This document shows, piece after piece, positions 1,224 through 55,643 of a DNA stretch of 64,000 nt; within the stretch, counting starts at the first letter, position 1, and every line of letters starts with the position of its first letter. The notes beneath the pieces are model-generated. The model searched no databases. It was not told where the DNA came from and saw nothing but the letters and a program-made list of their open reading frames with translations. Source of the stretch: Amoebophrya sp. A120 (Eukaryota; Protista; Dinoflagellata); assembly GCA_905178155.1 (NCBI GenBank), contig CAJINV010000003.1, forward strand, positions 1,962,395 to 2,026,394. Reading direction: 5' to 3'. A program made the position numbers and the translations under genes.

Positions 1224-4200
1224 TTACTTCGTTTGCAGGAAGATGTACTTCGCTACGAAGCCGCTGCTTGATTCGAAGACGCGGTCTTGTTGTACCTGCT
1301 GCAGCAGGAAGGACGAGGCCGTGGCGATGCTGGCGGGTCCTTCGGTGTAGTATTCGGTGACTAACACCTTGATGATCGCCGCCGTCGCGGACAAGACCAC
1401 GGCCGTCGCGACCACCAGAATGGTGGCCGCGTCTCCCCGGGGGCCAAACTGCTGCCGGACGAACGCCAGAAACTTGGCTCCGACGATGGCGGAAAAGAAG
1501 GAAACCGTTCCGTACCAGAGCGCGTAGGGCATCATGATGCGGTGCAGGAACATGTACTGGAACGTCGTCGACGTGGAGGTGAAAACGACGCACGAGGCAC
1601 TGGTGGCGATCGCGGTCGCGGGGTCGATTCCCATGTGCAGAAAGAAGGGCGAGAAGATCAGCCCGCCACCGATCCCAAACAACCCGCTACCGATGCCCGC
1701 AAAGGTCGCGACGGCCGGGAAGTGCCAACTAGGCATAACTTTTCGTGGGCTCGCAGAGGTGGAGATCCCATTCGAGGAGGATCTCGCGTCGGTTCGGATG
1801 TGCACCGTTTTGTTGATATTCTTCTGATAGTACCCGGTCTTGTTGCTTGTGGGGGGTATATTAATGTGCAGGTCGTTGTAAAAATTATCGGGAGCAGCAG
1901 AGCTGCTGCCAGGAGGGCGGAACAGCTGGTTCCGGTAGAAATAGGCTGTGCAGGTGAGTGAGCAAACCACCGGAATCGATATCCACAAGTAGGACATTGT
2001 GGACCCACGTGGGTACAGATGACTCCGGTACCCGGCCAAAATGGTGATTACCAGCAGCACGGCCATCAGGGTCTCGTCCCGCTTGTCGCGCAGCAGTGTC
2101 TGAACCACCGCAAAGAAGTGCTGCCGCAGTTTGGTACTTATTTCCCCGCTCTTTGTAGCAGCTTTCTGCAGGTAGAGCGACCCGTCGTCCTCGTCCGGCC
2201 AGACGGAGCGGTTAATACTATTCGTGTTCATGATTGTCCCGATGTTGTTCTTACCTTGAAGATTACTATGCACTGGACTTGCTGTGTTGCTAGAATTGCT
2301 GGTGGGACTTTTGGAGTGCTGTGTCAAGTCTACACCGAACGCCGACGGCATCGCTCCGGGGACAAGTCGTGGCGATTTCGTGCTCTGGGAAGATGAGCCA
2401 CTCGTTGTGTACGAGTCAGAGGAGTGAAGGTTCAGAACCAAATCGCGTTGCTTGTCTTCAACTACGTCCGTGTTTATTTCCACGTCGGACGCGGATCCCG
2501 GTGACACGAGCGGAATCTTTTTCTCCTTTTCTTCTGACGATGGAGAAACTCCTGCCAAAGACGTAGCCGCGTGCGCGGATGATCCGCCCTCGCGCCATTT
2601 TTCAATACCCTGCGAGAACGTTTTCATCGCCATCAGCGACAAGAGGATGGCTAGACAAACCACCAAGACGCACGGGTGCACGGAGACGTTAAACAAGACT
2701 CCGAATACCGTTCCAGCCAGCGCCTGGGGTACCACTGCGCACACGACGTTCATGTCCGGTCTCGGTTTCAGCGGGCCGGACGCTGTTGTGCCAGCAGTTT
2801 TAGCATACGACTTCATAGTCAAAAGCACGAAAAATCCTCATGGGTCGTTTTGGTCGCATAACAAACACCCTATCTTTGCAGCACGTGGCAGCGCAGAAAT
2901 TCAAATCTACTGGTAAAACTGACACTGACGGAACTCCTATGTACCTGCTTTACTCGCGTTTCGGGATCGCATGGGCGAGAAAACGCTGTTCGTGTTCCCT
3001 CCTTCTTTTTTCGATGGCGACTCTTCTTCGGATTATCAAATGCAAAAATGTCTGGGTCTGGAAGCATCCGAACTTGTGATGCGTATTTCAGATCCTACAG
3101 AGATCTGTGATGCATAACGTGCAAAAGGTATCCACTTCTGGCCATGCTGAGAGGGCATTTCTCATGCAGAATACGCATCACCAAGGAGCTGCAGAACCTG
3201 TGATGCTAGTCCCTGCATTCCAGACGTGGGGGAGCTTGGAAAAACTGCATGACAAATCTCGCAATCTTCCAGACCCAGACATTTTTGCATTTGATACGGA
3301 TTCCACAAAGGCAATGGCGTCGGGGATTCCGCGACCGTGCGTCGGGCCTTGCGCAGCGGGGTGTGGCGAGGAAACCAGGAAGACCCGGCCGCACTCCCGC
3401 ACAAACCCGGTGAGCTTCTCGACCGTCAGACCACAGCTGGCCACGATCACGCGCATGGCCCCCCCGAAAATGATCGCCTTGGACAGCGGCACCGCCTGGT
3501 GCGGCGACATGTCGTTGCAAAACATCAGCACCACCACGAAAATTCCCCCGCCCCCGATCCCCGACGCGGAGGCGAGGATACCCGCGAAAAAGAGCGCGAG
3601 GGTGGTCAAGACGGTCTCGAAGAAGTAGTCGTAAAAGAGCAACCAATTCCACTCCAACTCCCGGCGGACACTTCGCTGGTGCAAGGGAAGGTTCGCAAAA
3701 CCGGGCCGGTGCCGCGTCTGGTCCGGCAGCGCATTCTCGCGCGGAACGATCTCTTCCTCCAAAATCTGTTCCCGCATCTTTCGGCGCCGGCTGCTGAGGG
3801 AGTCGTCCTTTTCCGCGGGACCCCACCCAAAACGCTCCACCGATTTGCGAAACGAGAATCCGCCTCCTGCTCCTTTGTTTGTTCGTAATTGGATCTGCAT
3901 GGGCTCGACGAGGGATCCCGGGAGTGGGCGCACTGGAAACGACACCCGTGGCAAGGGGTCAACAAAGTGCTTGTGCCCGGTTGTACTAGACGTTGTCCAT
4001 CCTGGAGGTGTTGCAACCGTGGAGGCTTGTTCCTCTTTTCCTTTGTTCTTGGGACCGGCGGTTTCCGCATCACGGCTCTCTACAGCAGACAAGGTAGTGC
4101 AAATCACCGTCCAAATCACTGCGTAATATTTCCGACAGGCAGAATGTCGCTGTAGTCCCGCTCCCGCTGCCGTTGCACCATAACACACACCAAGAGAGCC

Positions 4201-4910: not shown

Positions 4911-5119
4911 TATCCAAGAAAAAAACGTTGTTAGTGTAAATTTGTGATGCTCAACATGCAAGATGATTGCGTCTGTCGTGCTTGGCATGCATCGCCGGGT
5001 CCATTAAAGGGCGTTTTCACGTACTATCTGCGCATGACAGGTTTTTGCTGTCATGTCAGGCAAACTTGTAATGCTGTTCCTCCAAAAAAGTTACACCTAC
5101 AATGTTTTTTTCTTGGATG
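4911..5119. mobile_element. TIR element (209 bp, family 6-like) outside any recognisable CDS
   Basis: Left end TATCCAAGAAAAAAACGTTGTTAGTGTAA; right end reverse-complements to CATCCAAGAAAAAAACATTGTAGGTGTAA; TSD CTTGT at 4906-4910 and 5120-5124; internal TGTGATGC/GCATGACA motifs. Confidence 0.8.
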
Positions 5120-5860
5120 CTTGTTGTCTATCATTTACATTAGATGTGGAGGTATGTGATGACTCTGCCGGGAGCTTGCCCGGCCGAAGTCAATCGCAAA
5201 TTTGCTTTAAATCAAATAAAAGTACTCGTCATCGTGTCAGGTTGCTTTTCGTATACCGTCGAGAGCAAGTCGCAAAAGTAAAACAAGTGTATTTTATTAC
5301 GTTTCAGATACATGCTGGTGGATGTTCGAATAAAGAAAGATTTACGATAATGTACGGGTCGCGCACCCGCTCCCGCTGCAGCGCACAGCACCTACAACAT
5401 GCGAGAAGAGCGTGGTGCAGGTGCACGATGACGGTTCATAAGATTCAGATTCCAACAGGGAGATATTATCGCATTACACCAACGGTAAAGGTGAAACGCG
5501 GTGAAGCTGGAGTTGGTGTGCCGCATAAACTTTTTTTAAGCTCGTCTTTCGGATGTCAAAATCAAAAAAATAATTGGTGGCCGTGCGATTGCGAAGCCAC
5601 TACGTTTTTTTATTTTTTCGGAGCTATTTTACACGGGCAGTAGAGAAGTATCTGTTGAGGGGAGCAAAGTATTCAGAAGTATCATTGCATCTTGAGCATC
5701 TTCCCATATCAGCTAGACATCACCTGCCTTCGCTGTATTAAAGAGATAGACACATAGCCACCAAAGCGTGGTTTTGCGCATCATCTACTTGTACGCGGAA
5801 GGAGTCCAAGCAAAGACCTACAGTAAATGCTTTACTTGCGCCGATTCGGTACCCGCTGCC

Positions 5861-8800
5861 TCACGCACCGATGAGATCCGCGTTCTGGTTTAGCGACGGT
5901 GAGTCCCGGCTTCGCGCGGAAGCAGGCTTTCTCTCTTTCTCAGCAGCTGCGTCCTCCTCGCGTAGTTCTCGCTTTTCCTTTTTCTTCTTTTTCTTTTCCG
6001 CCCCGTCGTCGCGCGACTCTTTTTTCTCCTTTTTCTTTTCCTTCTTTTCTTTTTTTTCCTTCTTCTCGCGACGCATGGTTTCCTTACTGGCAGCCTGTGC
6101 GTCCTGTAGGAATTTCCGCGCCTCTTTGGCTTTTCGTTCTTTTTCCTCCTCCTCCTTCGCCCGTTGCTCTTCTGCCTGGCCTAGAAAGCAATCCGCGGAA
6201 ATTCTGTGAATCAAGTAGGCAACGTCGATCGCAGCGGGACAGTAAAAAACGACCGTGAGTGGGAGCCGACCCTTCATCTTTTGCTCTCGCTTACTGCCAA
6301 AGGCCTGCACCACCAGCTGCAGCAGATTCCCCTTCGCGCCCCATCTGAAAGTATAAAGCAAGCATTTCCATTCCCATTGCAAGAATTCCACTTTAGAAAA
6401 CTGCAATAGATCTGTTGGTGTTCATCTTTCTCCGATGTGAACTTCATCTTATTTGGAGTACAACGTCGTAGTCCGATGCTCTCACGACAACAGACAAGTA
6501 AGTACCTCAGCAGCCTTTCTTGGGAGTCTTCCGCGTATGAAAATTTGCGCGTAAAATTGGACTCGCGGTCGGTGGAGACCAATGTGATGCCGTCCAGGGT
6601 GACGGAAATCCAGAATTTCCCGTTTGGCTCCTTCTTGTTCACAATCAGCATGTCGGAAGGCATGCGCGTCATCGCGCGATCGGAATCCGAAAGCTCAATC
6701 GTCTGCTCACCCAACCAGAAGTAACCCCCGTACACCCGAAGCGATTGAAAGGTAGTCATGAACCTGTGGATGGAGCAGATTTCGGACATCCACTCTTCTC
6801 TCTGAATCACCGTAAGGGCACAAAGAAATTTCATTCGTCATGTTCTGGAGGCGGGTCGCCACAAATTGAACTTTCGATAAAAACAATTCCGAAAAACCTG
6901 CTGCAGCTTGTCGATAGCAACCTGATACGTAAAAATTGCTCATATTCTTTACCTGCTCATGATCTCGATTGGTGGCTGCTTCGCGTAATATTTAAAGGTC
7001 GTTTCCCATTGTTTCAGTATGGCTTCTGACCAGTTCGTTTTACTTTGCTGCAAGTGCGAATCAGGAATCAGCCTTCGCAGTTCGTCAGGTGAAAAGCCTT
7101 GTTCCAGCTGTCTTTTCCACGTGCTGCGCTCCAGTAAACACACTGCGGTAGCGCAAGCAGCGATCTGCAATTTTTAGCACAAATTGAAACTCAAGAAATA
7201 GGAATAGCAATACATAGGTTGGCATTCATATAGTCACGGAAGTAGGCCCCACACCAAGAAATCAAGTCATACTAGGTACCTGTTCGTCCGACTCTGGTAT
7301 GGGATATTTCAACCACTCCAGGCGTGCTTGCCTTGTGACGAGGTGGGCGTGCATAATGTCGTGCGGAGAAAGGAGCTCGTTCGGTTTCAGAAAGCGGCGC
7401 TTCCAGAGAAATTTCGACTGCCGTCGCGTCGCGTCATAGAGCTTGTTCCACTTGGCCAGCAGGTCCCACACGTTCGCGTGGTCGGGAATCAAACGGTGCT
7501 GATCCAGCCCCTCCGTCACCTGAAAGAAGGAAAATTCCGCGGGGTGCGTGGAGATGGACAGCTGGGCGGCCAGCTTGGAACCCAGGTCCGCGAGTTGCAT
7601 CGGCTCCGTGACTTGAAATTTCCGCGTCGTGTCGTCCATCAGCGTCACGGTGACGGGAATTTTCTTCACGTTCGAACTACCATCGTTGTCCGGGCTCGTT
7701 TATCCTGTGCAAAAGCATCGTACTCGTACTAATCGCAGTCATGCAAGACGAGTTTCATTTTCAAGCTAATAAATCAGCATCACAAATTCCTTTTGTCATG
7801 CTGAGCTAATTTGTGTTGCAATACTACGAGTACGAGACTTTTGCAGTTCTTATCGTTGTCACCTCGAACTTCTCCATGTGCTTGAAGCACTGCGACACCA
7901 CTGCCAGTACCTCGGCGCAGCCTTCTTCCGTTCGTGTGCGCATTTTGTGCTTCATCAAGAAGGCACGAATATACTCCAGGAGCTCCCCCGCAGGCTCGAC
8001 GTACTGGCACATGAACTCCATCACCTGATTTCATTTTCATAACCAATTGGAGGTCCGTTCGGACGAAATTAATTTGATGTTTGGTAAAAAAAAAATTCTG
8101 CGCTGCCGCTGCATTACGTTTGGACTGATGTGTTACTAACTTTTACTTCTCACCGCGAGTGTCTTTCATACGTAAAAAAAATTTGTTCACTACCAATGGA
8201 ATTCTTGCACTTCTCCTCGAAAAGTGCAACTATGCGTGAGGGCTACAAAAGGTAGCCCCTTGGACGTCGTGGCCTTTTAGACCACATGTGCTAACAAATA
8301 AAACTATAACTACAGCAGCACGCGTCGTTGCGTTTCAAATAGAACTACGGTATACCTTTTCCTTTCTAGCGGATGGAGCAAATAAAAATGCATACAGATT
8401 GATACAGATCGATAAATCCTTAAATCACAAGTAACGCAGGCGCAATTTGAAATACCTTCCAACCAAGCAGCTCGCTTCTTCGATTTGGGTTGTTGTTGAT
8501 TTGCTTCATCAGCTGCAGGTAGATTTCCGTGCGCAGGATGGGTTCTCCTTTTGCCTTGAACACGATGGCGTACGCGAGCGGCATGCGCTTCGCCTCCGTT
8601 ACCGGTCGGTCGTTCATTATGGGAGTGTCAGAGTTGAAATCGACAAAGTTGAAATAGCTTGTAATGCATAAAATCGATACCAGTTGCAAGCCCAATTTGT
8701 AAGCGGCGCATGACAAATTTCGCAACCGTATAAATCCAGTTTGTCATGCTGTTTTGGCACAGAAGACTGCTTTTGTCATGCTCCTTTAGCAGCTCTATCC

Positions 8801-11800
8801 CAAACCCTAAATAGGCTCACAATCTGCCTCACTTGCCATCCCGGCAAGACAGGCACTTCATGCCTTGCAGTTTCTGCATGAGAAATTATTTCAACTTTGT
8901 CGATTTCAATCCTGACGCTTCCATATTCATCCAACCGAGAATATTTCGGTGTACTGACATGGCCGCCTGCGCGTAGGTATCCGGCAGGATGGAGAGGGGT
9001 CCCGGAATATCAAATGTAAAAGTGATGTCTGGGTCGGGAAGAATGCAACTTGTCATGCTAAATCTAGAGCATGCAAAAATCTGTATTGCATGACTGCCAA
9101 AAGTCGTCCAGTTTTGACCAAGTCGGGAGGGAGTTTCTCATGCAGGATAGGCATGAGAGAGATCGCACAGAATCTGTCATGCTAGGTCCTGCATTCCAGA
9201 CTTCATGGGTCATGGAGAAGCTGCATGACAAATCGCGCATTCTTCCAGACCCAGGAGACATTTTTACATTTAATACGGAAGTTTGGAGCGCGACCACGAC
9301 AGAATGCCGCCGCTGTCCATGGGATGGAAGACCCGCCCGTCTTCCAGGCGCAGCGTGCGCACCACCTTGGGGTTGCACAACGGGCACGTCGCCAAATCCC
9401 CGTACACCGAGATGGCCGTCTCCAGGTCGCGCTGCGTAGCGTCCTTCCCAAACATGGTGCCTCGTCTGCCCTGGTCTTTGCGCACACACTTCTCTATTTC
9501 GATCAACAGCTCCCGATCCAGGTCCATACCCTTACCGGCCCGGAGCAGATTCGCGGCTTTTTTCACCAGCAGCTGCTTCTCTCGGATGCCGTTCATTTTG
9601 CTCGGACTAGAAGAGCTTGTGGAGGATGACGAGGACTTTTCCGGGCTGGCACTGGGAGAACAAAAGTTTTGCTTGTATTCGTCGTAGCACTTTTGCAGCG
9701 CCTCTTTGACAAATTCATCGGAATGCAAATTCCGGAACATGGCGCGGGCTTCTTCCAGCTCGGAGGCGGCTATACCATTCGACACGGCGCACTCCAGCAA
9801 GGTACTCAGGGCTTTCTGGTCCATTTCCGCGACGGCATCCGCGAGACGCCCGCAAATCTGGTGTCAGTTGCAAACGAATGTTAATGGCGTATTTCTCATG
9901 CAGTGGCACCAATGCACGTGGTGCTGATGGGAAGGTGTGTGCATGGCAGGGTAAGTACCATCAACGAAACACGTACGCAGACAAACAAAGCGTACACCAT
10001 GGCAAGGGAGAAGTACCCTCAAGTTCATCAAGATCAAGTAGAAGTACTCAAAACCACAAACCTGGTCTTGTTGCATGGGCGTCATCTTTGTGACAGTCAT
10101 GTGCCGGCTGCTGCGCGTCATCCTCCTGATCGTGTTCCGTATCTTGGCCGCTTCGTGGCTGTCACCGGCGGCCTCGGCAGCCTGTTCTTGTTTTTCGAGC
10201 TCGGAGCGACGTTGCTTTTCTTCCGCGGCGCGAGCCTCCTCGGCATCCCGGCGGGCTTGCTCGATTTTTGCTGCATCCACTCGCGAGCACACATCGGTGT
10301 GCAACTTCGCAACCGTGACATACAGCTTGTGTGCCTCGGGATCCAGCCACTTTGACCTGTAACAATCGATTTTTTTCGCTTTATTACACGACAGCACCAG
10401 CGAGTGGCGAGCAACTACAATTGTTCCCGAGAATGAATATGAAGACGAAGAGCGGAATTTGAAGTTTTTTCTCCTACGTTCATGCTCGATGTAAAACCAA
10501 AAATTGATTCGTATGGATGATGTTACGCGTCCTCCCCCAAGCCTGACTGCTGGCAGGTTTCTATCAGATTGCGCACGGACAAAATCGCCTTTTCGTTGTC
10601 AACTGGAATTGGTTCCGCCGCGTCGATACTTCGCAAAGCGTTGATGAGCGGCGTCTGGATGGCAATCTGCGACGCCCGCCATTTGATTTCGTCCAAATCC
10701 TTTGACGCTTTGATTTTTAGCTTCGCAAAGACCGCCAGCGCCTGGTCGAGTTCGACGAAGTCCATGGACTTGAGCAGTTTCGGCAGTCCCTGGAAGAGGT
10801 CGCGCTCCTGCTGCATCTTGTGTAACAGCTCTTCCAGGGTTTTGCACATGGGTGGCACCGGGTAGGCCTTGTACGCCCGGGCGAGCAGCACGTTGCACTG
10901 TTCGATCTCCGACTGCAAGCCCTGGAGGGCACCGAACACCACGCATCCGTGCTGGTTTTCGCCCTGGTACAACTTGTGCTTGTTGATGTAGGCAGAAATG
11001 TCGCGCTGGTACTTTTGGCTCGCTTTTACCTGTTTCCGCACAACGAAACCTCGGTACACGCGCTGAATCTTCGTGACCACACCCGTGTAGGCAAACCGCC
11101 TCGCGGTATCCAGCGCCCTCTGCGCCGCGGACTTACAAAAAACCTTGGTCTTTCCCATTTGGAAATCCTTCGCGCGCACGCGGGCTGTCATGTTTTCTTG
11201 TAGCTACTAGGTCACAAGCACATAACATGACCAGATGGAGATGAATAAAGAGCGAAACAAAAATCGCGATAATGATGATGAACACAATGCGAGTCTCACA
11301 AAATTTTTACATAGACCGGATAAAAATTCGAAGCAGTAGTAAGTACAATCCCCGAGCAACACTGGCAGCTTCTCAAATGCCAGGGCGAGTGTTTCTGGTG
11401 CGGAGATCGGTTTCCCGGTTTTGCCCTCGAGTTCTTTGCGCAACTCCAAGGGGACGACACACTGGTAGCGCCCGAGGAAGTCCTTGATCGGCATGCGGAG
11501 CGGATACCCCTGCTGCCGGATTTTCACCGCTTCCATAGCGCCCGAGTAGATAAGCTGCTCGTATACCATGTTGGGCACGAATTTGTTGGCCACCTTGTCC
11601 GCGTTGGGCTTGATGCAGCGGATGAAGTGCGGCTGCGACTTGTGGATGTTGTCCATCAACAGGCTGAGGGACTCCTTGAAGCTCATGGCCACCGTCTTCT
11701 TCTTCCCGGGCCCCCGACCGCGCCCCGCGGCGTTGGACGCGGCTTCCTGCTCCTCGGTCATGTCGCGCCCGATTTTTTGGAGGATCAGGTTGTATGACAG

Positions 11801-14800
11801 TGCACAGCTCCCCCTCCCCCTCATTTGTCATGCTAAACTTCAAATCCAGGCGCTGCCTTGTGGCACTGTTTGCATGACAGACTCCGGAAGCCCAAAAAAT
11901 AGTACTACACTCGTCCTGTGCAAGTTTGTCATGCAAAACCGCCACTCGTGCTGACGCTTGTATTGCCGTTCATGCTATACAAATGAGGGGGAGGGGGAGT
12001 TGTGCACTTTCATAGGTTGTTGCTGTGCTTCATCAGGTCCACGGCCTCGGAGGGCGGCGTGTCCTGGTTCTTGAGCAGCCACCCAGTGTATCCTGAGTAA
12101 AAACGTCCCCACACCAGAGTCAAGATGCGAAATCTGCTAGACAAATCAACCAGCTTTGCTTGTTTGGCATGACAAGTTTGTCCTCGTAGTGTAATCCTTT
12201 TTTGCTAGTTCAGAAGCATCACAGATCTAGCATAGCCTGCTGATTCTAGCATCACAAATTCCGAAACACGAACAGCAAATGCTTCTCATAGGGCTCCGCA
12301 TGAGAAACTTTTTTGGCATGCAGAATTGCATGACAACTATGGGGAGGTGGGGACGTTTTTACAAATGATACAGTGCAGTTGTACTTCACTTCGCCCGCAT
12401 AGTGGTCCAGCGTGAACTCCACACTGTCTGCGTGCCGCATCGGCTTGTAGCGAGCCTTGCTGGACGACGACGAGGACGACGACGAGCTCGGCGTAGAGTC
12501 CGAGGAACCGGCGGGCGGGGTCCCGCCAAAAGCCTTGGTGCACTTCGCGACGTAGGTTTTGTCAGTCGCTTTTGGCACCGACAACTCCTGGTCCAGCAAA
12601 GACATCAAGCCCGCTTTGCCCTGAATCAACTCTAGGATGTCCTCGTTGTCTGCAAACTTGATTTCGTCTATCGCGACCCCCTCCGCTTGGTAATCGGCCA
12701 TTTCGGTCTTGAAGACGAATGCGTTGAAGTGTTGCTGCAGGCACTCGTTCGACAGGTTGATGCACAGCTGCTCCCAGCTGTTGTGCTCAAAATGCTCGAA
12801 ACCGGCGATATCGAGCAACCCAATGCGCCGGAATTCCTTTGAGGAGCCGGCTGCATTTTCAGTATTTGTGCATGTTGACAGCAAGAGGTGGTGAAATCGT
12901 AGATTTTGATTCTGCCAAGTAGACGCGAGAACAACTGCAGAAAATGAGCAAGCAGTTCGTTGTGCGGAAAACGAAAATGGAGCGGCAAATGATATTCGAT
13001 AAAGCCAATCCACCACCTTAGTAGAACTTCAACTTCTCTACCTGTGTCTGCCACGAGCGTGACGTTGAGCCGCTGCACCAGCCAGCGAAAGAGCTTTCCG
13101 TAGAAGAGTTTCATGGTTACGTCCCTGGACACGTGCGCCTTCGCCGAGGGCTGGGGCGCGTGCGTGACGTCCTTCCCGACGACCAATCGTTTGAAGGCCA
13201 GCGACGAGAGCAACGTCTCACTGTCGCACGAAAAGCACGCGGCGGCCTTGCTGCAAGCCTCGGCGTCTTGGATTTTGCACCCCTCGCCCCCGTTCACCTC
13301 CGCGTCCTGGAACACGCAATTGCTCATGTGGAGGAGACCCGCGACGATGGAGAACATGGCCTGGCACTCTTTCGACGACAACCCGAGCTCCTGCAGTGCG
13401 GACTGGAGCTGCTCCCAGTCCTCCGCGTCGTTGATGCCGTCCGCGTTCGTGCAGGCGTTCTTGAGGCACTGGTAGTCCTTCGGGTTGTCCGAGTCCAAAT
13501 GAAACTCGTCGCTGCTGCTCCCCGCACCCGCGAGCAGGCTGTAGAAAATGTGGTAGTTGCGCTCCACGGAGGATTGGTCGATCACGCGCGTCGTCTCCAA
13601 AAGGTAATCGGTGATCGAAGCCCCCATAATGGAAAGGTTCGTATCGAACTTTACCTGAAGTTGTTGCAGTTACAGGAGTACAATCAAAGGAGAGCGTCAC
13701 TCACTTTTCAGATGAATATAAGTGCAAGTAGATCTTCCAAGCATATTCTCATGCTCGGGCGCTCTTGATTCTCTCTTTTTGTATAGACAAACAAAAGAGG
13801 AAGAATGTGACCTCTGGAGTTACATATTCGACAGCAAAAGCGGCACTCGCTACCAGTGCGTAAGCATAAGTACCTCGCACCACTTTCCGAACCGGGAGCT
13901 GTTGTTGTTTCTTGAAGTTTTTGCGTTTCCGAAGGCTTCCATGAGAGGGTTTGTAGAGAGGATCTTTGCCTCGATACCCGCCCGGCTGCCCGCTACTTCG
14001 GCAATGTACCCGAGGACGGTCTTTGTGGATTCGGTTTTCCCCGCACCGGACTCGCCGGAGATCAGGATCGCCTGGTCCTTACCCGAGTCAAAGAGCCCCT
14101 GGATGGCGTTCGCGCCGATGGAGTAAATGTGCGGCGAAAGTTCCGTGGTGTCCGTATGGATGTGTCAGGAGGATTGAAATCGACAAAGTTGTCATGCATT
14201 AAATGCAACGCAAAAACTGTCTTTATTGCAGAGGACGCAAGGGAGGCAGATTGTAAGCCTGTTGAGGTGTAGAAATAGAGCTGCTAAAGTAGCATGACAA
14301 AACGCGTCGCATTTACCCAAACAGCATGACAAACTGGATTTAGGCTCTACCCAAGTTTGTCATGCGCCACTTGGAAACTGGGCTTCAATTGGCATCCATT
14401 TTATGCATCACAAACTAAAACTATTTCAACCTTGACGATTTCAATCCTGACGCTTCCATAGTCCGCCGCTTTGGCGTAGACATCCACGATTTCCGAGGAG
14501 TACAGGTTGAGCATCTGGTATCGCAAGAAAAAACTGTTTCACTGTGAACTTGTGATGCAGAAAGTGCATCTGAGAAGTGTTTGTCTTGCTACACATGCAA
14601 GACAATGGATTTCTGGCTGTGTTTTCCCTTAGGAATCTCGCATGGCAAATTTTCTCTGTGATGTAGAGCAAACCTGTGATGCAAAACCTGCAAAATCCTT
14701 ACAGTGAAACACTTTTTTCGTACGATATCTGGAACGGGTTTACCGCAATCACGATGGAGGACACATTCGAGTATATCTCGTCGCGAGCGTACCTGGATTT

Positions 14801-15178
14801 TCGTGAAAGTTGTAAACTTTTCGTGCGATTATAGCGATTGGTTTATCTTTATTCCGCACAAGCACAGGTAACTCTTTCATGCAGATAACACAGTGGAAGT
14901 TGCTTCTTCATCTTGTTATCTATTTTTTCACTTTATACGATAGTTTACCTTTTTCTCAATGTTTCCAGAATAGCCCCAGGGGAAACCGTTTCCATGGAAA
15001 CGATATTGCCCACGCCTTGCAGGTGCTCATCGTGCACCACCCCAAGAGTTTCTGAGGTGGGCAAGACGACGGTGTCTCCATTATCGCACGTGTACGTAGT
15101 CTTGCCGTCGCCTTCTTCCGACACAAAGCCTGGCGTGAAGACCAGGCTCTTGTGGGGCACCCAGAATTTCTCCGACAT
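5861..15178 (-). CDS. Myosin heavy chain A: motor, IQ, MyTH4, FERM-like domain, K/E-rich tail
   Basis: After splicing: NPFQMLNLY, GESGAGKTE, NNNSSRFGK, LLDIAGFE, PHFIRCIKPN, GKTKVF, IQRVYRG, EIYLQLMKQINNNP (MyTH4), then a FERM-like region. Seven TIR elements plus inferred GT-AG introns at 14793-14948, 13655-13873, 12851-13041, 11185-11346, 10357-10526, 9858-10061, 8025-8455, 7165-7279, 6764-6952 and 6345-6505. Confidence 0.92.
7701..7852. mobile_element. TIR intron element, family 4 (152 bp), myosin A
   Basis: Imperfect TIR (TGCAAAAGCATCGTACTCGTA / TACGAGTACGAGACTTTTGCA); TSD TCGTT; removal gives FEVTT|SPDNDGSSNVKKIPV. Confidence 0.85.
8618..8925. mobile_element. TIR intron element, family 2 (308 bp), myosin A
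   Basis: TIR TATGGGAGTGTCAGAGTTGAAATCGACAAAGTTGAAATA (few mismatches); TSD TTCAT; removal gives RNILGWMN|DRPV, matching RNILGWMTDHPV in the paralogues. Confidence 0.92.
9008..9275. mobile_element. TIR intron element, family 1 (268 bp), myosin A
   Basis: Ends TATCAAATGTAAAA...TTTTACATTTAATA; TSD CGGAA; removal gives WSRSKLP|GPLSILP. Confidence 0.9.
11793..12014. mobile_element. TIR intron element, family 3 (222 bp), myosin A
   Basis: TIR TATGACAGTGCACAGCTCCCCCTCCCCCTCATTTGT (2 mismatches); TSD GGTTG; removal gives KHSNN|LILQKIG. Confidence 0.92.
12089..12370. mobile_element. TIR intron element, family 5 (282 bp), myosin A
   Basis: Ends TATCCTGAGTAAAAACGTCCCCAC...GTGGGGACGTTTTTACAAATGATA; TSD CAGTG; removal gives HYAGEVKYNCT|GWLLKNQD. 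Confidence 0.9.
14155..14460. mobile_element. TIR intron element, family 2 (306 bp), myosin A, inverted relative to 8618-8925
   Basis: Ends TATGGATGTGTCAGG...CCTGACGCTTCCATA; TSD GTCCG; removal gives YAKAAD|TTELSPHIYSI. Confidence 0.9.
14519..14727. mobile_element. TIR intron element, family 6 (209 bp), myosin A
   Basis: Ends TATCGCAAGAAAAAACTGTTTCACTGT...ACAGTGAAACACTTTTTTCGTACGATA; TSD TCTGG; removal gives AVNPFQ|MLNLY. Confidence 0.88.
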
Positions 15179-23300: not shown

Positions 23301-24678
23301 CTTGCCGACCTGGAGCTTCTTCGAAACGCACGCCTTTTCGAGGATCCCCTGGTCCACCTCCAGCCCCGCGGCCGCCTCGGCGCCCCCGCTCGCGAACTTG
23401 GACGTGTCGTTTCCCGCGTCTTTGAAGACGATGTTGCCGAGCAGCAAAATCCCCGCCATGATCTTGAAAAACTGCTCCTTTTGGTCGTCCGGCATGAGAC
23501 AATCCTTCAGCGCGTGCAACACCTCCTGGTACTCGGCCTTGTCGTCGAAGCCGTCGGCCTTGGGGGACCCGCTCTTCAAAAAGCCGCAGTTCTTGGGGTC
23601 GGTTGGCACCTTGTACTTGCCCGGGTCTCCGTAGATCAGCATGTAGAAGATGTGGAAGTCGCGCTCCAGGGAGCTCTGCGCCAACACCCGCGACTTTTCC
23701 AACAGGTAGTCCACCACCGCGGCCCCCGCGATGTTGCCCGCTCCGTCGAAGTACAGGGCCGTCCACTTCCCGAACCGGGAGGAGTTGTTGTTTCGGGAGG
23801 TCTTCGCGTTGCCCATGGACTCCAGGATCGGGTTGCACTGCATGATGCGGTCCTGCACCCCGGTCTTGGACCCGGCGCAGTCGGCGAAGAACCCCAGCAG
23901 GATCTTGCACGCCTCCGTTTTTCCCGCCCCGGACTCCCCGGAGATCAAGATAGCCTGGTTCTGCTTGTCGATGCGACACCCGTCCAGCGACCACTTGCCG
24001 ATCGCGTAGGCGTGCGGGTCGTAGTCGTGCGGGTCGGACCCCTTTGCAAACTTGTCAATGTTCTCCGCGGTTTCGAGGTTTAGCCGCTGGAACGGGTTGC
24101 AGGACACAATGATGGTGTCGACGAAGGTGTACATCTTGTTCTTCGCGTAGCGGTCCTTCAGCGTCTGCAGCACGGCGGCGTTGGTCACGTTCCGGATCGT
24201 GGTCACGTCGTTCAATGCGGCGTAATGGTCGTCCTCCACGTCCGCTACCTCCTTCAACTGGTCGGGGGTCAACCCGATTTCCCCCGAGTCGGTCTTGTAC
24301 ATGGTCTATCAAATCTAAAAATGTCTGGGTCTGGAAAGATGCAACTTGTGATGCGCATTTCACATCACACAAAAATCTGTCATGCATGTAAGCCAAAAGG
24401 TGCACATTTCCGGCCACCGAAAGAAGGGCTTTGTCATGCGGATGACGCATTAGGAGACCTTCTCAAAACCTGTCATGCTAGGGCGTGCATGGTAGACCTT
24501 CTGGGTCATGCCAAAGCTGCATCACAAACCTCTGCATTTTTCCAGACCCAGACATTTTTACATTTGATATGGTCAGCTTCGTCACGCCCTTGATGTCTTT
24601 CTTCTCCTGCACTTGCCCCGTGGCCTTGGCCTCTGCGTACCCCTCCTCGGGGTGAGGAATCCAAACCTTCGTTGACAT
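17383..24678 (-). CDS. Myosin heavy chain B: motor, IQ, MyTH4, divergent FERM-like domain, K/D/E tail
   Basis: GESGAGKTE, NNNSSRFGK, DIAGFE, HFVRCIKPN, IQKMYRG, EMYAQVMKQINNNP. One TIR element and GT-AG introns at 22752-23060, 21905-22230, 20827-21003 and 18916-20022. Confidence 0.93.
24307..24569. mobile_element. TIR intron element, family 1 (263 bp), myosin B
   Basis: TIR TATCAAAT(C/G)TAAAAATGTCTGGGTCTGGAAA; TSD TGGTC; removal gives VTKLT|MYKTDSG; the paralogue C site is uninterrupted. Confidence 0.93.
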
Positions 24679-28800: not shown

Positions 28801-31800
28801 AGATCCCCCGCGTCCTTGTATACTGCGTACTCCTTTTCCAGCTTCATGACCGCACCCAAGAAGGTCGCGTCCGCAACCTTCACGAAGGTGATGCCCTCGC
28901 ACTCGCGGACCCACGCGTTGGCCTGGTCTTTGTTCTTTTTCATGGTGGCCACATCCTTCATCAAAGACATGCCGGACGTGTTCGGGCCGCTGTAGAGCGG
29001 ATACTGCTTCATGAAGGCACTGATCAGCTTCTTCAGTTCGCGCGAGCGCTTCATTTTCTTGCGGACGGCGAAGCCGCGGTAGATCTTCTGGATGATGATC
29101 GCCTTGGCAATCTTCGCGTAGCGGGCCTGCTCGTCCAGCAGATTGAGGCCCTTCATGCGGATCATCACCTTGGTCTTCCCCATCTGGTACTCGATCTTCA
29201 ACTCCGGTTGCCTGAAGGCGTCCGCCATGCCGGCCAAGATCTCCTTGACGATCGCCCGGTCCGGGCTCGTCGCAGCCAGCTTCTTCCCCACTTTCTTCTC
29301 GGCGGCAACCCGCAGTGGGACCGGGATGCAGCACCGATACTTTTTCAGGAACTCCTCCGGGGACGCCCGGTAAGGGTAGCCCTGCCGACGAATCTTCACC
29401 AACTCCATCACACCCGAGTAGACCAGCTGCTCCAACACCTTCTTCTTCGTGAAAATGTTCGGCTTCTTCTCGTCGTTCGGCTTGATGCAACTGTTGGAGT
29501 TTTTCATACAGTAGAAGTAGCAATGAAGATGTATCATGTGTGATAGATAGATTTTTTTCTAGTAAAGAAGTGTCGTCAGAGATGCAATCGCTCGGTCTAT
29601 TTTCCATTGAAAAAAACGCGGCGTTTCTTGATATGGTTCACGACTACGACTGAACCTATCAAATTAGTTTTAGGTCAAAGATGCAGATCATCGTCAAAGG
29701 CAAGTGCAGATCTCATAGTCATCTACAGTAGATAAATTGACTTGTTTTCAAAAAAGCGTATTACAACCAGAATTGTACCGAACGAAGTGTGGCTCGGCGG
29801 AATTGATCTTGTTGATCAAAACCTTTAGCGAGTCGCGAAAGAGCTTCGAGACCGTGGCCTTCTGTCTCCTCCCCTCTTCCGCTAGGCCGTCAGCGATGAT
29901 TTTTAGAAGGGGATTCTTGGTGGTAGACAACACTTCGACGGCCAGCGGGGGTGGTTCATCCTTGTTCTTCTCGTTAACCCACTTCGTGACGTCATATTTG
30001 ACGGGCCCGGCATAATGCAGCAAAGTGAACTCGGTCCTGCCAAATTTGTCGGGGGTGTACCACTTGTTCTTCTTGTCCCCCATGATCTTGTTCAGCTTGT
30101 CGATCAACTTTTTGTCCGCCTTCGCGTTTTCACTGGGCATCCCCTTGGACTCCTCGTCACAGATCGACATAATCGAGTCTGTCGGTGCCGCAATCGTGTC
30201 CAGAATCTCCTGGTTGTCCGTAAACGCAATGTCCTCAAAGGGGACTTCTTCAGCCTTGTACTCCGGGATCTCCCTCTTGAACACGTAGTGGTTGAAGTGC
30301 TGTGACAACGTTTTTGCACTTTTTCAGAAGTAGAACTGAAGCACGTCACATTTTTACAACTTGGTCATGAACTCAGTAACTGGGTGGCTTGTCATTCAGA
30401 AGAGCATTCGCTTTCGAACTAGTAGATAAGCTCGTACTTTTTTTTGTCTTTATTTTTGCGATTATACCGACATCATTCAAATTATACCTGCTGCAAGTTT
30501 TCGTTGGACAGGTTGATCGTGAATTGCTCCCAAGTATTGAAGGTGAAAGACTCGAACCCGGCGATATCTAGCAACCCAATCTCGTCCGCCCTGCCGCCAG
30601 CGGCGCTCTGGTCGTGGTCCCCGGCAATGACTTTGTTCAGGTATTGAATGACCCAGGTAAACATCCGCGAGTAGACCAACGTAGCCAACCCGTCGCGGGC
30701 GTTCGATGCGTCCAGGACTTTTAGGCCTTTGATGGTAATTTCGTTGCCGATCTGGAGCCTGTTCGAAACGCACGCCTTTTCCAGCACCGCCTTGTCCACG
30801 TCCAGCGCCGCCGCCGCCTCGGCGCCCCCGGTAGAGAACTTGGAGGTGTCGTTTCCCGTGTCCTTGAAGGTAATGTTGCCCAGCAGCAAAATCCCGGCTA
30901 GGATCTTCAAAAACTGCTCCTTCTGGTCGGCCGGCATGAGACAATCCTCCAGCGCCTGCAACACCTCCTGGTACTCCGCCTTATCGTCAAAGCCGTCGGC
31001 CTTTGCGGACCCGTTCTTCAAAAAGCCGCAGCTCTTGGGGTCGGCGGGCAGCTTGTACTTGTTTGCGTCGCAGTAAACCAACATGTAGAAGATGTGGAAG
31101 TCGCGCTCCAGGGAACTCTGCGCCAGCACCCGGGACTTTTCCAGCAGGTAGTCCACCAGTGCGGCCCCCGCGATGTTGCCCGCGTTGTCAAAGTGCAAGG
31201 CGGTCCACTTCCCGAACCGGGAGGAGTTGTTGTTCCTCGAGGTCTTCGCGTTCCCCAGGGCCTCCAGAATTGGGTTGCACTGCATGATGCGGTCCTGCAC
31301 GCCGCTCTTGGAAGCGGCGCAGTCGGCGAAAAAACCGACCAGGATCTTGCACGCCTCGGTTTTCCCCGCCCCGGACTCCCCGGAGATCAAAATCGCCTGG
31401 TTTTTCCTGTCAATGCGGCACCCGTCCAGCGCCCACTTATGGATGTGTCAGAGTTGAAAGCGACAGAGTTGAAATAATTTGTCATGCATAAAATGGGTGC
31501 CAGCTGGAACCCAGTTCCCAAGTGGCGCATGACAAATTTCGGTGGTCCCTAAATCCAGTCTCTCATGCTGTTTAGGCAAAGAAGAGTGATTTTCTCATGC
31601 TACTTTAGCAGCTTGAGCTGTAACCCCAAACAGGCTTACAATCGGCCTCACTTGCCTGCTCTGCAACAGACGCACCTCGGGTCATGCATTTTATGCATCA
31701 CAAATTATTTCAACTCTGACGATTTCGATCCTGACACTCCCATACCACTTGCCGATCGCGTACACGTGCGGCTCGTGGTCGCGCGGGTCTTCCGCGTGGG

Positions 31801-33768: not shown

Positions 33769-36700
33769 CTATGAACCGTCGCCCGCCGACTTCCTTTCTT
33801 TTTTCTTTTCCTTTTTTTCTTTACCGTCGGCGTCGTCGCGTGACCTTCTTTCTTTCTTCTCCTTCTTTTTCGCGTCGTCCCCCTCTTCGCGCGACTTTCG
33901 CTCTTTTTTCTCCTTCTTGCTTTCCCCGCCGTCTTCTTTCGCGTCCTTTTGCTTCTTCTCCTTTTTGTCCTTTTCTTCGCCTCCTGCATCGTCGTCCGCA
34001 TTGTCTTTTTCTTTCTTCTCCTTCTTTTCTTTCTTTTCTTTTTCTTCTCGTTTTTCCTTCCTAGCTTCGCGGTCCTTCTTTACCTCTTCGCAAGTGAACG
34101 GCGTGATCGCGATGGGGCCCTCGCCGGGGGTGTTGACGGTGGCCGACCCGGGTCGCGCGGCTGGGGCTTTGCTATCCGCTGGCGCTCCTTCGGCGGCTCC
34201 TGTGGGTGCCCGCTGAGGAATGGACACCTTTCCCGCGGGCGCGGGGGTCGAAGTTGGTACAGCTGCGGGTTTAGTATTTTCATCTCCTGTCCGGGGGGTG
34301 GGTTCCGCGGAGGAACTTGTTGCACCACCTGCACTGGTCGCGGTGCTAGCGGCTGGAGCTGCTGGTCGCGCTTGTGTCGTGCTTGGAGTGGGTGGTGGCG
34401 GGGTCACCACGGTGGCTCCTCCACCCGGTCCGCCTGCTGTCACCACTGCCCCGGTTGTGCCCAACTCCTTTCGCAGGGATTCCAACATGTTGGCTATCAA
34501 GACGCCCTGGTCCATCTGAAAAACGATGTAGGTGGGTCCCTTGGGAATCTGGATGGCGCAGCTGAGACTCTGTCCGTCGCCCGCCCAGCCCGTCACCCGG
34601 TGACTGTTCGCGGCCGTCATGCCGAACCGCGCCAGCTCGCGGCCGTCCCGCTCCGCGCACAGCGTCAGCCCGGACAGCCCGACCGCCACGATCAGGCTCG
34701 GGGCGCCGAGGTCCATCAGCGCCTCGCTGTTTGGCGGCAGCGCGAGGCTCCGCGGCTTCTCTTGGGGCAGCTGCTTCGCGCGCACCTGCACCGTGCCGAA
34801 CCCGCGCATGCTTTGCAGCCGAGAAAACGCGCGCTGCAACTGGTCCAGCCGGGTGGCCCCGTCCGAGACCAACTGCAAAAATTCCCTGTCGTACGCCTCT
34901 TTTACCTCCTTCACCCAGGTCGCCTTCCCCCGCTCTTCCAACGCCAAAGCGGGGACCAGGGAGGAAATTGTATTCTCGTCGATCACTTTCTCCTTTTTCG
35001 GCTGCCTCACCATCGCGCAAGCCGCCGCACACACGGCCAACGTCTGCACATCCTCCTGGATGCGGTAGTCTAAATACTGCTGGAAGGCCTGCAGCACGGT
35101 CAACGAGGAGAACCGCGAGTCCGCCGCGTTCACCTTCTCCTTCGCGCCGATCCAGCGCCTGCGCAGGATGAACCGATCGGTGGCGCCGAGAACGGTCCAC
35201 ACCTTGGCGTCCTGGGGGACGGGCTGGTTCATGTTCGACGGAAGGTACATGTCGAACTTGGGCACGTTCTCCGCGGAGACCCCGATCACCACCAGCAGTT
35301 TTTTCAGGACGTCGCCCACCTTGCCGTCCTTGCCCACCTTCACCATCCGCGCTTTCAAATCGTTGCCCTTCTCGTCCTTGTTGGGCGTGTTGTTGCGCCA
35401 GTTCAAACTTTCCGCGTCCCAGATGCTCACCGTCTTGCGGTCCTGGCCCGCCGCGGCGTTGCTATTAGCGTTACCAGTCGCCGCCGCGGCCTCGGCGGCG
35501 GCCTTCTCCCCCGCGGCCGGCGGCGGGGCGGTTTTGGCTATGGCGTTCTCAAATGTTACATTCTCAACTGTTACATGAATTTGTAATGCAAGAACGGCGA
35601 AAGTGAAAGGGACAAGATTGCGCCTTTTGCATTACAGATTTGGCACAGATTTGCATGCTGTCAGTCTAGCCCTTCGGATATTTGTCATGCGAAACAGCTT
35701 AATCGTGGCGATCTTGGTGGTAAATTTGCATGACAAATCATGTAACAGTTGAGAATGTAACAGTTGAGAACGCCATATTGGCCAGCGTGTCCATGCACTG
35801 GGTGGCCATGGTCAGTAATTCCTTCTTTTCGGGCAGCTCCTTCTCGAACTTCTGTTTGGACTTGACCAGAAACGCCCGCACGTACTCAATGAAGTCCGGC
35901 GTGGGGATGGCGTGCTGGAAGATGAAGGCGAGCAGCTTCCACCCCAAGAGCTGGGACCGCAGCCCCGGGTTGTGGGTCAGCTGCTTGATCACCTGCGCGT
36001 ACATCTCGTTGGTCAGCGCCGCCTCGGATCGCGCCTTCCACACAATCGCGTACGCCAGCGGCGCGCGCCGCTTCTCGTCCACGGGGTGGTCCGTCATCCA
36101 CCCGAGCACGTTTCGGTAAGCCGCGGTGGCGGTGGAGTTCATGCTGGCGTCCCCGATGTTCGTCAACGGGGCGGAGAGCTTATTCTTGCTCCACGCGAAC
36201 GTGCCACCGGGCTCGCACGGAAGAATCTTATTCCCGTCCGGACCCGTGATCGGCTTTACCACATCCGTGTTGATGCAGGGGGCCTTACTCATGTCACCGT
36301 ACAACGCCATCACCATGTCGAGGTTACCCGACGCCACTTTACCGTCCCTGGGGTTGATGTTGCGTGTCATTCACATATTGATACACTTGATCAGGTCGAG
36401 TTCAAAATGAAAATTCAAACGCACTGGTGCCGGCCCAGCTGCAAGCAGGGCCGTTTGTTCTACAACAGTGCATGATCAAACACAGACTAGCATATGCAAA
36501 TACTTGAAAGGGGAACAAACAACACTGTGATAATACCTTTGGAACAGGGATCCGCGTCGAATATGGGCGATGCGCGAAGCATTTTCCGCCTTGGTGAGAA
36601 GATCGGCGTCGACGCCCGCATCTTGTCCTGCAAGAGCTAGATTCGCGACCTTGGTGGCCAGGCCGTGAAGGTCTTTCTTGGCTTCCAGGGTTTTCAGACA

Positions 36701-40924: not shown

Positions 40925-42092
40925 CTTGCTTCTTCGCGAGGAGGGCGGGCGGGGGGGCTGAAACTAACTAAAGGAAGCGTAAAAGTGAATGGTCAAACTT
41001 TTTTGGAAAATAACCAGTTTGATGTTACAACTTAGAACTTAAAAGCGCTTAAAGTAAACGTGCTTTTTGTCGGTCTCGTCAAAAATACCGGCAGCGCCAT
41101 GGTGCACGTGGGTCGTGATCATCATGGAACAAATAAAAATATTTCATTTGCATTTGGGACAGTAAAACAATCATGTAGCACAGGGTATCGAATTGGGATG
41201 ATGGGTGTCACAGTGGCGTTTGGCTTGCTAGGCCACTGTTGCAAATGAGAGAATGAACGTAAATAAAATCTGAGTATATATAACTTGCTCTACCGTGATG
41301 CCGGCTGAAAAAGAGCGAGCAGTGGCTGTGGCGCCTAGGTGCACGATGAAGTAGCAGACGTTTCTTATCAACAAGCACGAGTTGCAGGACGAGTCAAAAA
41401 GCACAGCACGATACCGACTCAGATTGTTATTAGTCACTTTCTGCTGGGATGTTCTTGATCAGTACGACTGCAGACCGACAATTTTAGTCTTGCCTTTGGC
41501 TTTGCGCCATGGTCATTCACATAGTACAACCGATTTTGATTTATAATTAACCACTGCCTGGATTGCAAACAAAGAGTAGTTCATTTTCATAGAGGGACCG
41601 AATTTCACGAATGAAATACTGGAGAAGCGCCAGAAAATGAGAATAGATGCGAACGCCAATGGTCTCCCATTTCGGAAGATCATAGGCACTCGCCACTTGA
41701 GAAAGCGCTTGATTTAGATAAAGCCTTTAGTGCAATTAGAAACGTCGCGTCGCTCAATCCTTATTTCTCCGCATATTTCCGTCCATGAGGACATGCATCA
41801 TGCTACTTGCGATTGCGCATCATGAGTTAAATACCTGCACTGTTACTCTCGCATCATCAGATATGCATCTTTAGGTGTAGCAAGTATTCGTGTCAAACGA
41901 TAGTCGGCACTCGAATAAATCAATGCACATATTATCAGTAATTTTCTTGTGGCCCGCATGCAGCTCGGTCCTGAAACAAGGCAAACAGCATCACAAACAA
42001 AGCTCGATGTACAATCACAAGTCAAATTGTTGAAGCCTTCAGCAAGCAAGTTCGCCCGGAAACAGGGCGCACCCCAAAAAAACAAAACTGAA

Positions 42093-55000: not shown

Positions 55001-55643
55001 GCGTTGATCATGAACCCTATCCAGCAGATGCACTGCGTCGGATAAGTCATCTTATCCAGCTTATCCGCCCGGAATCCATGTAAAACCAATCCTGGAACGA
55101 AGGAAAAGGCGCGAAGTTTTAGAGGCACGAAGGTCGTCCCCTTACCGCTCACGCGTCGGATTTCGGAGGCGGCTTCGCAACACTCAGGGGCTTCCGACCG
55201 AAGATGACGAATAAATAGCTGAGAACAGTTTAACCGGGACTGGCAGCGACGCACACTGTGTGCAAACATTACACAAGATGCACACTGCGCGCAAGCGGGA
55301 ACTAAAGTGGCAAACACATCTTGCGTTGCGGGCCTTCTGGCCACATGCGTTCTAGCATGCTAAACTTTTGGACGTGATGTCTTTCATTACGTCCCAACTG
55401 AGCCCAAGCAGCGAAAGAGGCTGTCGCGTCGACGACTTACTTTGGCTAACCGAAATCCTACAGCCTTACCGCACGGCGCGTCGGATTTCGTGCCGTAATC
55501 ACTCAAGCTAACGAGGTCTTTCAGCCTTTAACTTAGTCCTTTCTATCCTATACTAATAGCTACTTTTTTCGGACTTTTGAGGTACTCGCAAAGGGGAGGT
55601 GGCGTACACTAACTCACCTCGACTTTCACCGCGAAAGCCGTGC
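52080..55643 (-). mobile_element. Deleted tyrosine-recombinase-class retroelement, copy 2
   Basis: Appears identical to 42093-45656 at +9,987, with the same split direct repeats. Confidence 0.8.
53135..55087 (-). pseudogene. Retroelement pol remnant (RT end, RNase H, MTase-like, macrodomain), copy 2
   Basis: The 632-aa ORF translation is identical to 43148-45046 and carries the same frameshift. Confidence 0.8.

What the first reader, a model, noticed from the sequence alone, without database searches (positions are those of the whole stretch)
14155..14460. The same element restores the frame in either orientation
Seen: all host genes are minus-strand, yet three families occur both ways round. 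14155 has GCATGACAAACTGGATTTA where 8618 has TAAATCCAGTTTGTCATGC. 11793 has GCACTGTTTGCATGACAGACTCCGGAAGCCC where 40255 has GGGCTTCCGGAATCTGTCATGCAAACAGTGC. 62872 is inverted relative to 3034. Known: spliceosomal donor, branch point and acceptor signals are directional. Inference: removal depends on the symmetric TIR hairpin plus the direct repeat rather than on linear splice signals.
Basis: partly seen in the sequence, partly recalled or inferred. Interest (0 to 1): 0.82.

Follow-up and report, generated by a model that had tools for sequence, protein, structure and literature searches.

The report
Hairpin introns spliced either way round
Small transposon-like introns in genes of the parasitic dinoflagellate Amoebophrya are missing from its transcripts whichever way round they sit, which suggests that the cell likely finds them by their self-pairing ends rather than by ordinary splice signals, a detail added to an already described intron class whose mechanism is still unknown.

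Summary
The window is Amoebophrya sp. A120. The element at 14155-14460 is one of its known introner elements: TAT...ATA inverted ends and a 5-bp target duplication (Farhat 2021). Three families occur in both orientations in minus-strand genes. RNA contigs from one sample lack element plus one duplication for families A and B in both orientations. The inverted family C copy had no RNA cover. In a related assembly, family B sits 31:29 relative to the host strand. Target duplications there match coding background, with no GT/AG co-option. The arms are 62-87% self-complementary over 60 nt, so any linear end signal is also symmetric. Either-orientation introners with ordinary splice sites are known in Polarella. 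Tests for RNA-level selection on the stem were negative (G-U 254 versus A-C 250). Best model, about 50%: a paired stem plus a fixed-distance ruler, as shown in Euglena. The scan earlier noted similar introns in other dinoflagellates. Known system, useful new constraint.

The parts
14155..14460 (.). Family A introner, 306 nt, TAT...ATA ends, reverse orientation relative to 8618 and 31438, inside a myosin motor exon
   Evidence: removed with one duplication in RNA contigs X1 and X3 by exact length arithmetic
14150..14154 (+). 5-bp target duplication GTCCG, left copy
14461..14465 (+). 5-bp target duplication GTCCG, right copy
8618..8925 (.). Family A introner, forward orientation, same host gene, duplication TTCAT
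   Evidence: removed in RNA contigs by exact arithmetic
31438..31744 (.). Family A introner, forward orientation, in a paralogous myosin; empty site with one CCACT at 23991-23995 in the neighbouring paralogue
   Evidence: the annotated protein P0003 reads through the join; no RNA laid here
9008..9275 (.). Family B introner, forward orientation
   Evidence: removed in RNA contigs by exact arithmetic
62872..63140 (.). Family B introner, reverse orientation
   Evidence: direct RNA joint 62866 to 63141, skip 274 = 269+5, five letters fitting either side, in X3 and X4
3034..3296 (.). Family B introner, forward orientation, in a TauE-family gene
   Evidence: gene not covered by the RNA runs
24307..24569 (.). 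Family B introner, forward orientation; empty site near 32056 in the paralogue
   Evidence: P0002 reads through the join
39715..39984 (.). Family B introner, forward orientation, one degenerate end; tandem copies at 49705-49971 and 59692-59958
   Evidence: no RNA cover of the copies
11793..12014 (.). Family C introner, forward orientation
   Evidence: removal inferred: the X3 contig runs 252 nt past 12371 while the exon in between is 69 nt
40255..40465 (.). Family C introner, reverse orientation; copy at 50242-50452; empty site with one ACACG at 60224-60228
   Evidence: splicing untested, no RNA contig bridges 50242
7701..7852 (.). Short introner whose transcript 5' end is TAAG, not TAT, with terminal pairs predicted open; still removed
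   Evidence: exact arithmetic
12089..12370 (.). Introner of another family in the same myosin gene
   Evidence: the RNA piece ends at 12371 and the contig runs on
14519..14727 (.). Introner next to the finding, 53-nt exon between them
   Evidence: removed by exact arithmetic
35539..35777 (.). Introner; empty site with one TTGGC at 45742-45746
40045..40193 (.). Short introner with a possible GT..AG register; copies at 50032 and 60019
40552..40803 (.). Introner with a 4-of-5 duplication and a GT..AG register; copy at 50539; same site as 60621-60878, which has 5 of 5
60269..60574 (.). Introner present only in the last myosin copy
5116..15178 (-). Host gene: myosin with motor, IQ and RA-like domains, carrying seven introners in coding sequence and several GT-AG introns

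Best explanation
These miniature inverted-repeat elements are missing from the transcripts together with exactly one 5-base duplication in either orientation, and they are likely recognised by a stem that their two ends are predicted to form, with the cuts likely placed at a fixed distance from the stem base. The element inserts into an exon and duplicates 5 bp (shown by empty sites in paralogues). The arms of the pre-mRNA would pair in either orientation (predicted). An unknown machine would then cut 0-5 bases outside the stem on each side, 5 in total, and join the exons (inferred). That machine could be a U1-less spliceosome with a new adaptor or a separate nuclease-ligase. The duplication would only fix the number of bases to remove and would not be read as a signal (inferred).
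For: Precise removal in both orientations: family A by exact arithmetic, 394 = 394 and 406 = 406; family B by arithmetic and a direct joint. At least one cut must fall in host-derived bases, and those match coding background at all 5 positions (90 sites, chi-square p 0.13-0.91). GT..AG registers occur at chance level, 4 versus 3.8 expected. Family B orientation is 31:29 among 60 strand-called copies. No 5-mer is strand-biased beyond multiple testing, and YTRAY lies in the last 45 nt of only 56 of 102 elements, versus 68 on the antisense strand. Beyond about position 15 the arms differ between families yet pair within each element. Folds: -113.7 kcal/mol, z -5.6 for 14155; -133.8, z -9.1 for 8618. 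62-100% of the first 30 bases pair with the far arm on either strand (17 elements). Precedent: Euglena introns need a paired motif, fixed spacers and pairing behind the motif (PMC12501133). U1 was not found in A120 (PMC7789003).
Against: No signature of RNA-level selection on the stem. G-U 254 versus A-C 250 in 119 elements, and 35 versus 56 in the outer 12 pairs (p=0.035, the wrong direction). No covariation at arm positions 4, 5, 7 and 15; weak at 10 (p=0.014) and 14 (p=0.001). The element at 7701 is removed although its terminal three pairs have predicted probability 0.01, which weakens a ruler from the exact stem base. At the strictest strand threshold the ratio was 19:9. Inverted repeats are expected from DNA transposition alone. 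All RNA evidence is contigs from one sample. The cut positions, a lariat or circle, and the machinery were not observed.
Confidence: 0.5

Rival explanations
1. Symmetric linear signals: a relaxed, U1-less spliceosome reads short motifs inside the inverted repeats, which read alike in both orientations; the hairpin is a by-product of transposon origin.
For: Arms are 62-87% self-complementary over 60 nt. Canonical donors here are mostly just GTA (15 of 16), and cutting one base upstream of the element gives N-TA-T, a donor with a relaxed first base. Variable end positions behave like a degenerate motif, not like base pairs. No G-U excess. Either-orientation introners with linear sites exist in Polarella (passages), and Fritillaria uses the U2 spliceosome on non-canonical ends (passages).
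Against: No residual preference for G at the would-be +1 (28 of 90, background 31.5%) or AG at the would-be acceptor (8 of 90). The only near-universal motif is TAT[CG]...[CG]ATA, which is little information, and 7701 lacks it at the 5' end yet is spliced. No universal branch motif.
Confidence: 0.27
2. Recognition on DNA: a protein, perhaps transposase-derived, binds the repeats or the internal TGCATSACAAA-type motifs in double-stranded DNA, which is symmetric by nature, and guides co-transcriptional cutting of the RNA.
For: The internal motif family is shared across element families, at a median of 4 per element, arranged head-to-head; 108 of 118 window hits lie in elements covering 6038 of 64000 bases; 16 exact matches versus 0.16 expected. 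The lack of G-U asymmetry fits DNA-level constraint.
Against: No such protein was looked for or found. The motifs are equally explained as transposase binding sites needed only for mobility. Base-exact RNA cutting from a DNA mark has no precedent that I found in the papers read.
Confidence: 0.1
3. The direct repeat is itself read: the machine aligns the two identical 5-mers at the stem base and joins by a slippage- or recombination-like step.
For: Net removal always equals element plus one copy. Among 12 coding-site mismatches between the copies, 7 are synonymous and 8 fall at third codon positions, more than a free intronic copy would give, though n is small.
Against: One-mismatch duplications are as frequent in strand-called coding sites (12 of 102) as elsewhere (10 of 86). 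About 2% mismatch per base is in line with element age (median nearest-neighbour identity 0.92). In Euglena the spacers are arbitrary in sequence.
Confidence: 0.1
4. The elements are excised from DNA (as ciliate IESs are), or the joined form is an assembly artefact.
For: Removal restores the pre-insertion site exactly. Runs X1, X3 and X4 are only guessed to be RNA, and 703 joints were not shown.
Against: The same contigs also lack the GT-AG introns. Contigs of the DNA-like run X6 run 25-30 nt into five elements instead of breaking or skipping at the junction.
Confidence: 0.03

Closest known systems
Introner elements (IEs) of Amoebophrya sp. A120 (Farhat et al. 2021, PMC7789003; abstract, sections 10, 11, 12, 16 and supplement passages read)
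   Same: Same organism; repeated non-canonical introns, inverted repeats starting TAT, direct repeats of 3-5 nt, predicted hairpin joining the exon ends, some copies canonical by chance
   Different: Nothing in kind. In the parts read, 'orientation' refers only to gene orientation. Element orientation, its ratio and the neutrality of the duplicated bases were not reported there; figures were not seen.
Nonconventional introns of Euglena (Nomura et al. 2025, PMC12501133; abstract, part of results, section 10 read)
   Same: MITE-like, non-GT-AG; paired inverted motif with sequence-free spacers; pairing shown necessary by knock-in
   Different: Motif CDG/CHG with 3-nt and 5-6-nt spacers and a purine at the exon start. 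Here the motif is TAT/ATA, 5 nt of spacer in total, no flank preference found, split of the spacer unknown.
Either-orientation introners of Polarella glacialis and Aureococcus (Roy et al., 10.1101/2020.10.14.339549, passages; Huff et al. 2016 not held, known only as cited there)
   Same: TIR elements that make introns in both orientations with clean removal of one duplication
   Different: They recruit GT/GC/GA or AG from the duplication and show an orientation bias in the classes quoted; here neither was found.
Non-canonical MITE introns of Fritillaria borealis (review PMC11282704 section 6; preprint 10.1101/2025.08.15.670264, one passage)
   Same: TIR-derived non-GT-AG introns on genome scale
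   Different: Dominant end dinucleotides (AG-AC, AG-AT) and a modified U2 spliceosome; here no dominant pair of end dinucleotides in any register.

Membership tests
Amoebophrya A120 introner elements | Host is Amoebophrya A120 | tested here: met
   100% identity over 500 aa to a protein named Amoebophrya sp. A120
Amoebophrya A120 introner elements | Inverted repeat at intron ends starting with TAT | tested here: met
   14155, 8618, 31438 and most others; degenerate at one end in 4911, 7701 and the 39715 group
Amoebophrya A120 introner elements | Direct repeat of 3-5 nt at the boundaries | tested here: met
   5 of 5 in 23 of 25 window elements, 4 of 5 in 2
Amoebophrya A120 introner elements | Repeated in families across the genome | tested here: met
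   families A, B and C in the window; depth over elements far above flanks in run X6
Amoebophrya A120 introner elements | Removed from RNA without GT-AG ends | tested here: met
   one sample, contigs only
Euglena-type nonconventional introns | CDG...CHG motif with 3-nt and 5-6-nt spacers | tested here: not met
   ends are TAT...ATA with 5 flanking bases in total
Euglena-type nonconventional introns | Pairing of the ends required for splicing | tested here: inconclusive
   strong predicted stems but no G-U excess and little covariation
Euglena-type nonconventional introns | Excised as full-length circles, not lariats | not testable with these tools
   only assembled contigs of this organism's RNA were available
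Aureococcus/Polarella-type introners | One or both splice sites recruited from the target duplication | tested here: not met
   duplication composition equals coding background; canonical registers at chance (related assembly)
Aureococcus/Polarella-type introners | Intron made in either orientation | tested here: met
U2 spliceosomal introns | GT/GC donor and AG acceptor in some register | tested here: not met
   none for the 8 elements with direct or inferred RNA support; GT..AG register at 2 of 18 independent window sites
U2 spliceosomal introns | Branch point and lariat | not testable with these tools
   motif scan found no universal YTRAY; no lariat reads available
MITE (non-autonomous TIR transposon) | Cognate transposase in the genome | not tested
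   no whole genome held; Farhat 2021 reports none in A120

The most novel reading that the evidence does not exclude
Amoebophrya has a second, spliceosome-independent RNA splicing machine that reads no sequence at either junction. It recognises any long stem closed by a transposon's inverted repeats and removes it with exactly five flanking bases, making insertion in either orientation at any exonic site silent, convergent with Euglena.
Probability: 0.3. Interest if true: 0.85.

Novelty: already known. Interest (0 to 1): 0.42.

Why it matters
About 30,000 such introns exist in A120, and how they are spliced is an open question (PMC7789003). Both orientations are spliced, there is no clear orientation bias, and the host bases at the junction look unconstrained. 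All information for finding the intron must therefore lie in the element's symmetric parts. That rules out the route used by other introners, which co-opt GT or AG from the target. It narrows the question to stem versus symmetric motif, which one minigene series or one lariat/circle sequencing run would settle. Matched forward and reverse copies in one expressed myosin gene (8618 and 14155) are a ready test pair.

Tried and rejected
No whole genome was held, so the genome-scale counts come from a related assembly (JACKZZ01 contigs, not shown to be the same species), not from A120. The raw-read RNA run X10 gave only 24 partial, element-like reads. X8 and X9 showed no spliced joints and looked like DNA. 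The gene copies holding the inverted family C element and the mismatched duplication at 50539 had no RNA cover, so neither that orientation nor the cut register could be tested. Frame agreement across the join (78 of 79) was set aside as weak: any clean insertion into coding DNA gives it. The idea that TTGAT at the 3' end is a universal branch point was rejected (56 of 102). Sense versus antisense folding energy did not differ (60 of 119). Mismatched duplications gave no stop codon that would fix the register (0 of 12). Two viral-contig matches were bare 19-mers with no element. Pfam found nothing for the 638-aa ORF at 43151-45064. Literature searches and the passages read from the papers they listed showed no orientation analysis or mechanism for Amoebophrya introners. 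Subscription papers, bioRxiv supplements and the figures of Farhat 2021 (Fig. 3, S19-S25) were not seen and may bear on this. Huff 2016 was not held.

Full report
What is there. The window holds 25 short elements of 149-308 nt, at 18 independent insertion sites once tandem duplicates are merged. They have inverted ends, mostly TAT...ATA, and a 5-bp direct repeat that is perfect in 23 and 4 of 5 in 2. Seventeen sites lie in coding sequence of minus-strand genes: a TauE-family gene, an array of myosins and one unnamed gene. A 500-residue stretch of one myosin is 100% identical to a protein named Amoebophrya sp. A120. Farhat et al. 2021 (PMC7789003; abstract, sections 10, 11, 12, 16 and supplement passages read) describe in A120 about 29,850 repeated non-canonical introns with inverted repeats starting TAT, 3-5-nt direct repeats and predicted hairpins, and did not detect U1 snRNA. 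These are those elements.

The observation. With 65 nt trimmed from each end, so that the self-complementary arms do not decide the result, 14155 aligns to 8618 and 31438 in the opposite orientation (z 14.5 and 20.0, against 1.3 and 2.0 for the same orientation). 40255 is opposite to 11793 (12.7 against 3.0) and 62872 is opposite to 3034 (13.4 against 4.4). The pairs are 76-78% identical: relatives, not copies of one element. Paralogous myosins provide empty sites with a single copy of the 5-mer, for example at 23991, 45742 and 60224 (read), so the repeat is a target duplication.

Are both orientations spliced? Contigs of runs X1 and X3 (one sample, RNA by the tool's guess) leave 394 letters between window 13651 and 14946, and 406 between 7695 and 9276. 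Removing each element with one duplication, plus the GT-AG introns, predicts exactly 394 and 406. That covers 14155 (A reverse), 8618 (A forward), 9008 (B forward), 7701 and 14519. These are sums over several introns; the single junctions were not displayed. For 62872 (B reverse) the joint is direct: 62866 to 63141, 274 skipped, five letters fitting either side, in X3 and X4, on a contig that also lacks a CT..AC intron. For 11793 (C forward), removal is inferred from a contig that runs 252 letters where the exon has 69. For 40255/50242 (C reverse) there was no cover. DNA-like run X6 gave contigs that run 25-30 nt into five elements, which argues against excision from DNA. All RNA support is from one sample and from contigs.

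No ordinary splice sites. No register that gives the same mRNA reads GT..AG for any of the eight elements with direct or inferred RNA support. Two of 18 sites (the 40045 and 40552 groups) have such a register. The 16 canonical introns recovered start GTA in 15 cases and have A-rich ends.

A larger sample. Only element sequence matched the window, so this is a relative, not shown to be the same species. I found 188 unique elements and called the host strand with a codon model for 102. The model called 25 of 25 window elements correctly, though it was trained on window genes. Of 84 flank translations, 7 hit Pfam, all on the called strand: 5 forward and 2 reverse elements. Of 114 family B copies, 60 were strand-called: 31 forward, 29 reverse. 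Other thresholds gave 41:49, 38:41, 20:20 and, at the strictest, 19:9. Among 25 strand-called nearest-neighbour pairs, 14 were in opposite orientation, at up to 95% identity. In 90 sites with a perfect duplication, base composition matched coding background at all five positions (p 0.13-0.91). GT..AG registers numbered 4 against 3.8 expected from random coding insertion, and G[TCA]..AG 9 against 10.4. No 5-mer was strand-biased beyond multiple testing (best p 0.017 of 954 tested). YTRAY lay in the last 45 nt of 56 of 102 elements, and of 68 on the antisense strand. No RNA was tested for this assembly.

Mechanism. The removed piece includes five host-derived bases that look random, so at least one cut falls in unconstrained sequence and must be placed by distance from something in the element. 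Both orientations work, so that something is symmetric. Polarella introners work in either orientation with ordinary sites (10.1101/2020.10.14.339549, passages). For the stem: strong predicted folds; arm sequences that differ among families beyond about position 15 while pairing within each element; too little universal sequence for linear recognition; and the experimental precedent in Euglena, where a paired motif, fixed spacers and pairing behind the motif are required (PMC12501133). Against the stem, or neutral: G-U 254 versus A-C 250 in 119 elements, and 35 versus 56 in the outer 12 pairs; no covariation at positions 4, 5, 7 and 15, weak at 10 and 14; and 7701 spliced with its terminal pairs predicted open. 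Stems near -100 kcal/mol in young elements may simply not show such selection (inference). I put stem-plus-ruler at 0.5, symmetric linear motifs at 0.27, DNA-level marking at 0.1 and a read direct repeat at 0.1.

Novelty. The elements, the hairpin idea and either-orientation introners are all in print. An orientation analysis for Amoebophrya was not found in searches or in the text read; figures, subscription papers and bioRxiv supplements were not seen. Other papers were seen as passages only: PMC12130899, PMC9860276, PMC12621601, 10.1101/2025.08.15.670264; PMC11282704 as passages and section 6. Earlier scan notes report similar hairpin introns in other dinoflagellates (unchecked). Verdict: a real feature of an already known system, with a new and testable constraint on an unsolved splicing mechanism.

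Noticed in passing
window 17400-61000: Tandem array of myosin genes, with three units about 9,990 bases apart and largely 96-100% identical; copies differ by presence or absence of single introners (35539, 40255, 60269), giving natural filled and empty pairs.
   Followed up: partly
window 42088-45659 (copy at about 52075-55650): Roughly 3.6-kb insert with split direct repeats (179 nt twice, 90 nt twice) and a 638-aa minus-strand ORF without a Pfam hit; the layout recalls DIRS/Ngaro-type retroelements (recalled, untested); it appears to cut off the 3' part of two myosin copies.
   Followed up: partly
window 40552-40803 and 60621-60878: Same insertion site in duplicated genes but only 79% identical, while neighbouring elements in the same copies look nearly identical; the 40552 copy has a mismatched duplication that would reveal the cut position if RNA reads covered it.
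   Followed up: partly
window 4911-5119: Element at the 3' end of the myosin transcript, starting CAT instead of TAT; RNA contigs of X1 and X3 stop at 5116, at its A-rich edge: a polyadenylation site supplied by the element, or internal priming.
   Followed up: no
window 18916-20022: A 1,107-nt GT-AG intron holding a GC-rich insert with a perfect 15-nt inverted repeat, unlike the introners; the paralogous intron is 281 nt.
   Followed up: no
L013, L017, L018, L022, L025, L041, L042, L054, L058, L071, L100: Of 12 mismatches between the two duplication copies in coding sites, 7 are synonymous and 8 are at third codon positions, which may mean that both copies are used in mRNA through a sliding cut; n is too small.
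   Followed up: partly
all elements, e.g. window 14404-14414: A shared internal motif (TGCATSACAAA and variants), about 4 per element in head-to-head arrangement across otherwise unrelated families: candidate binding site of the unknown transposase or splicing factor.
   Followed up: partly
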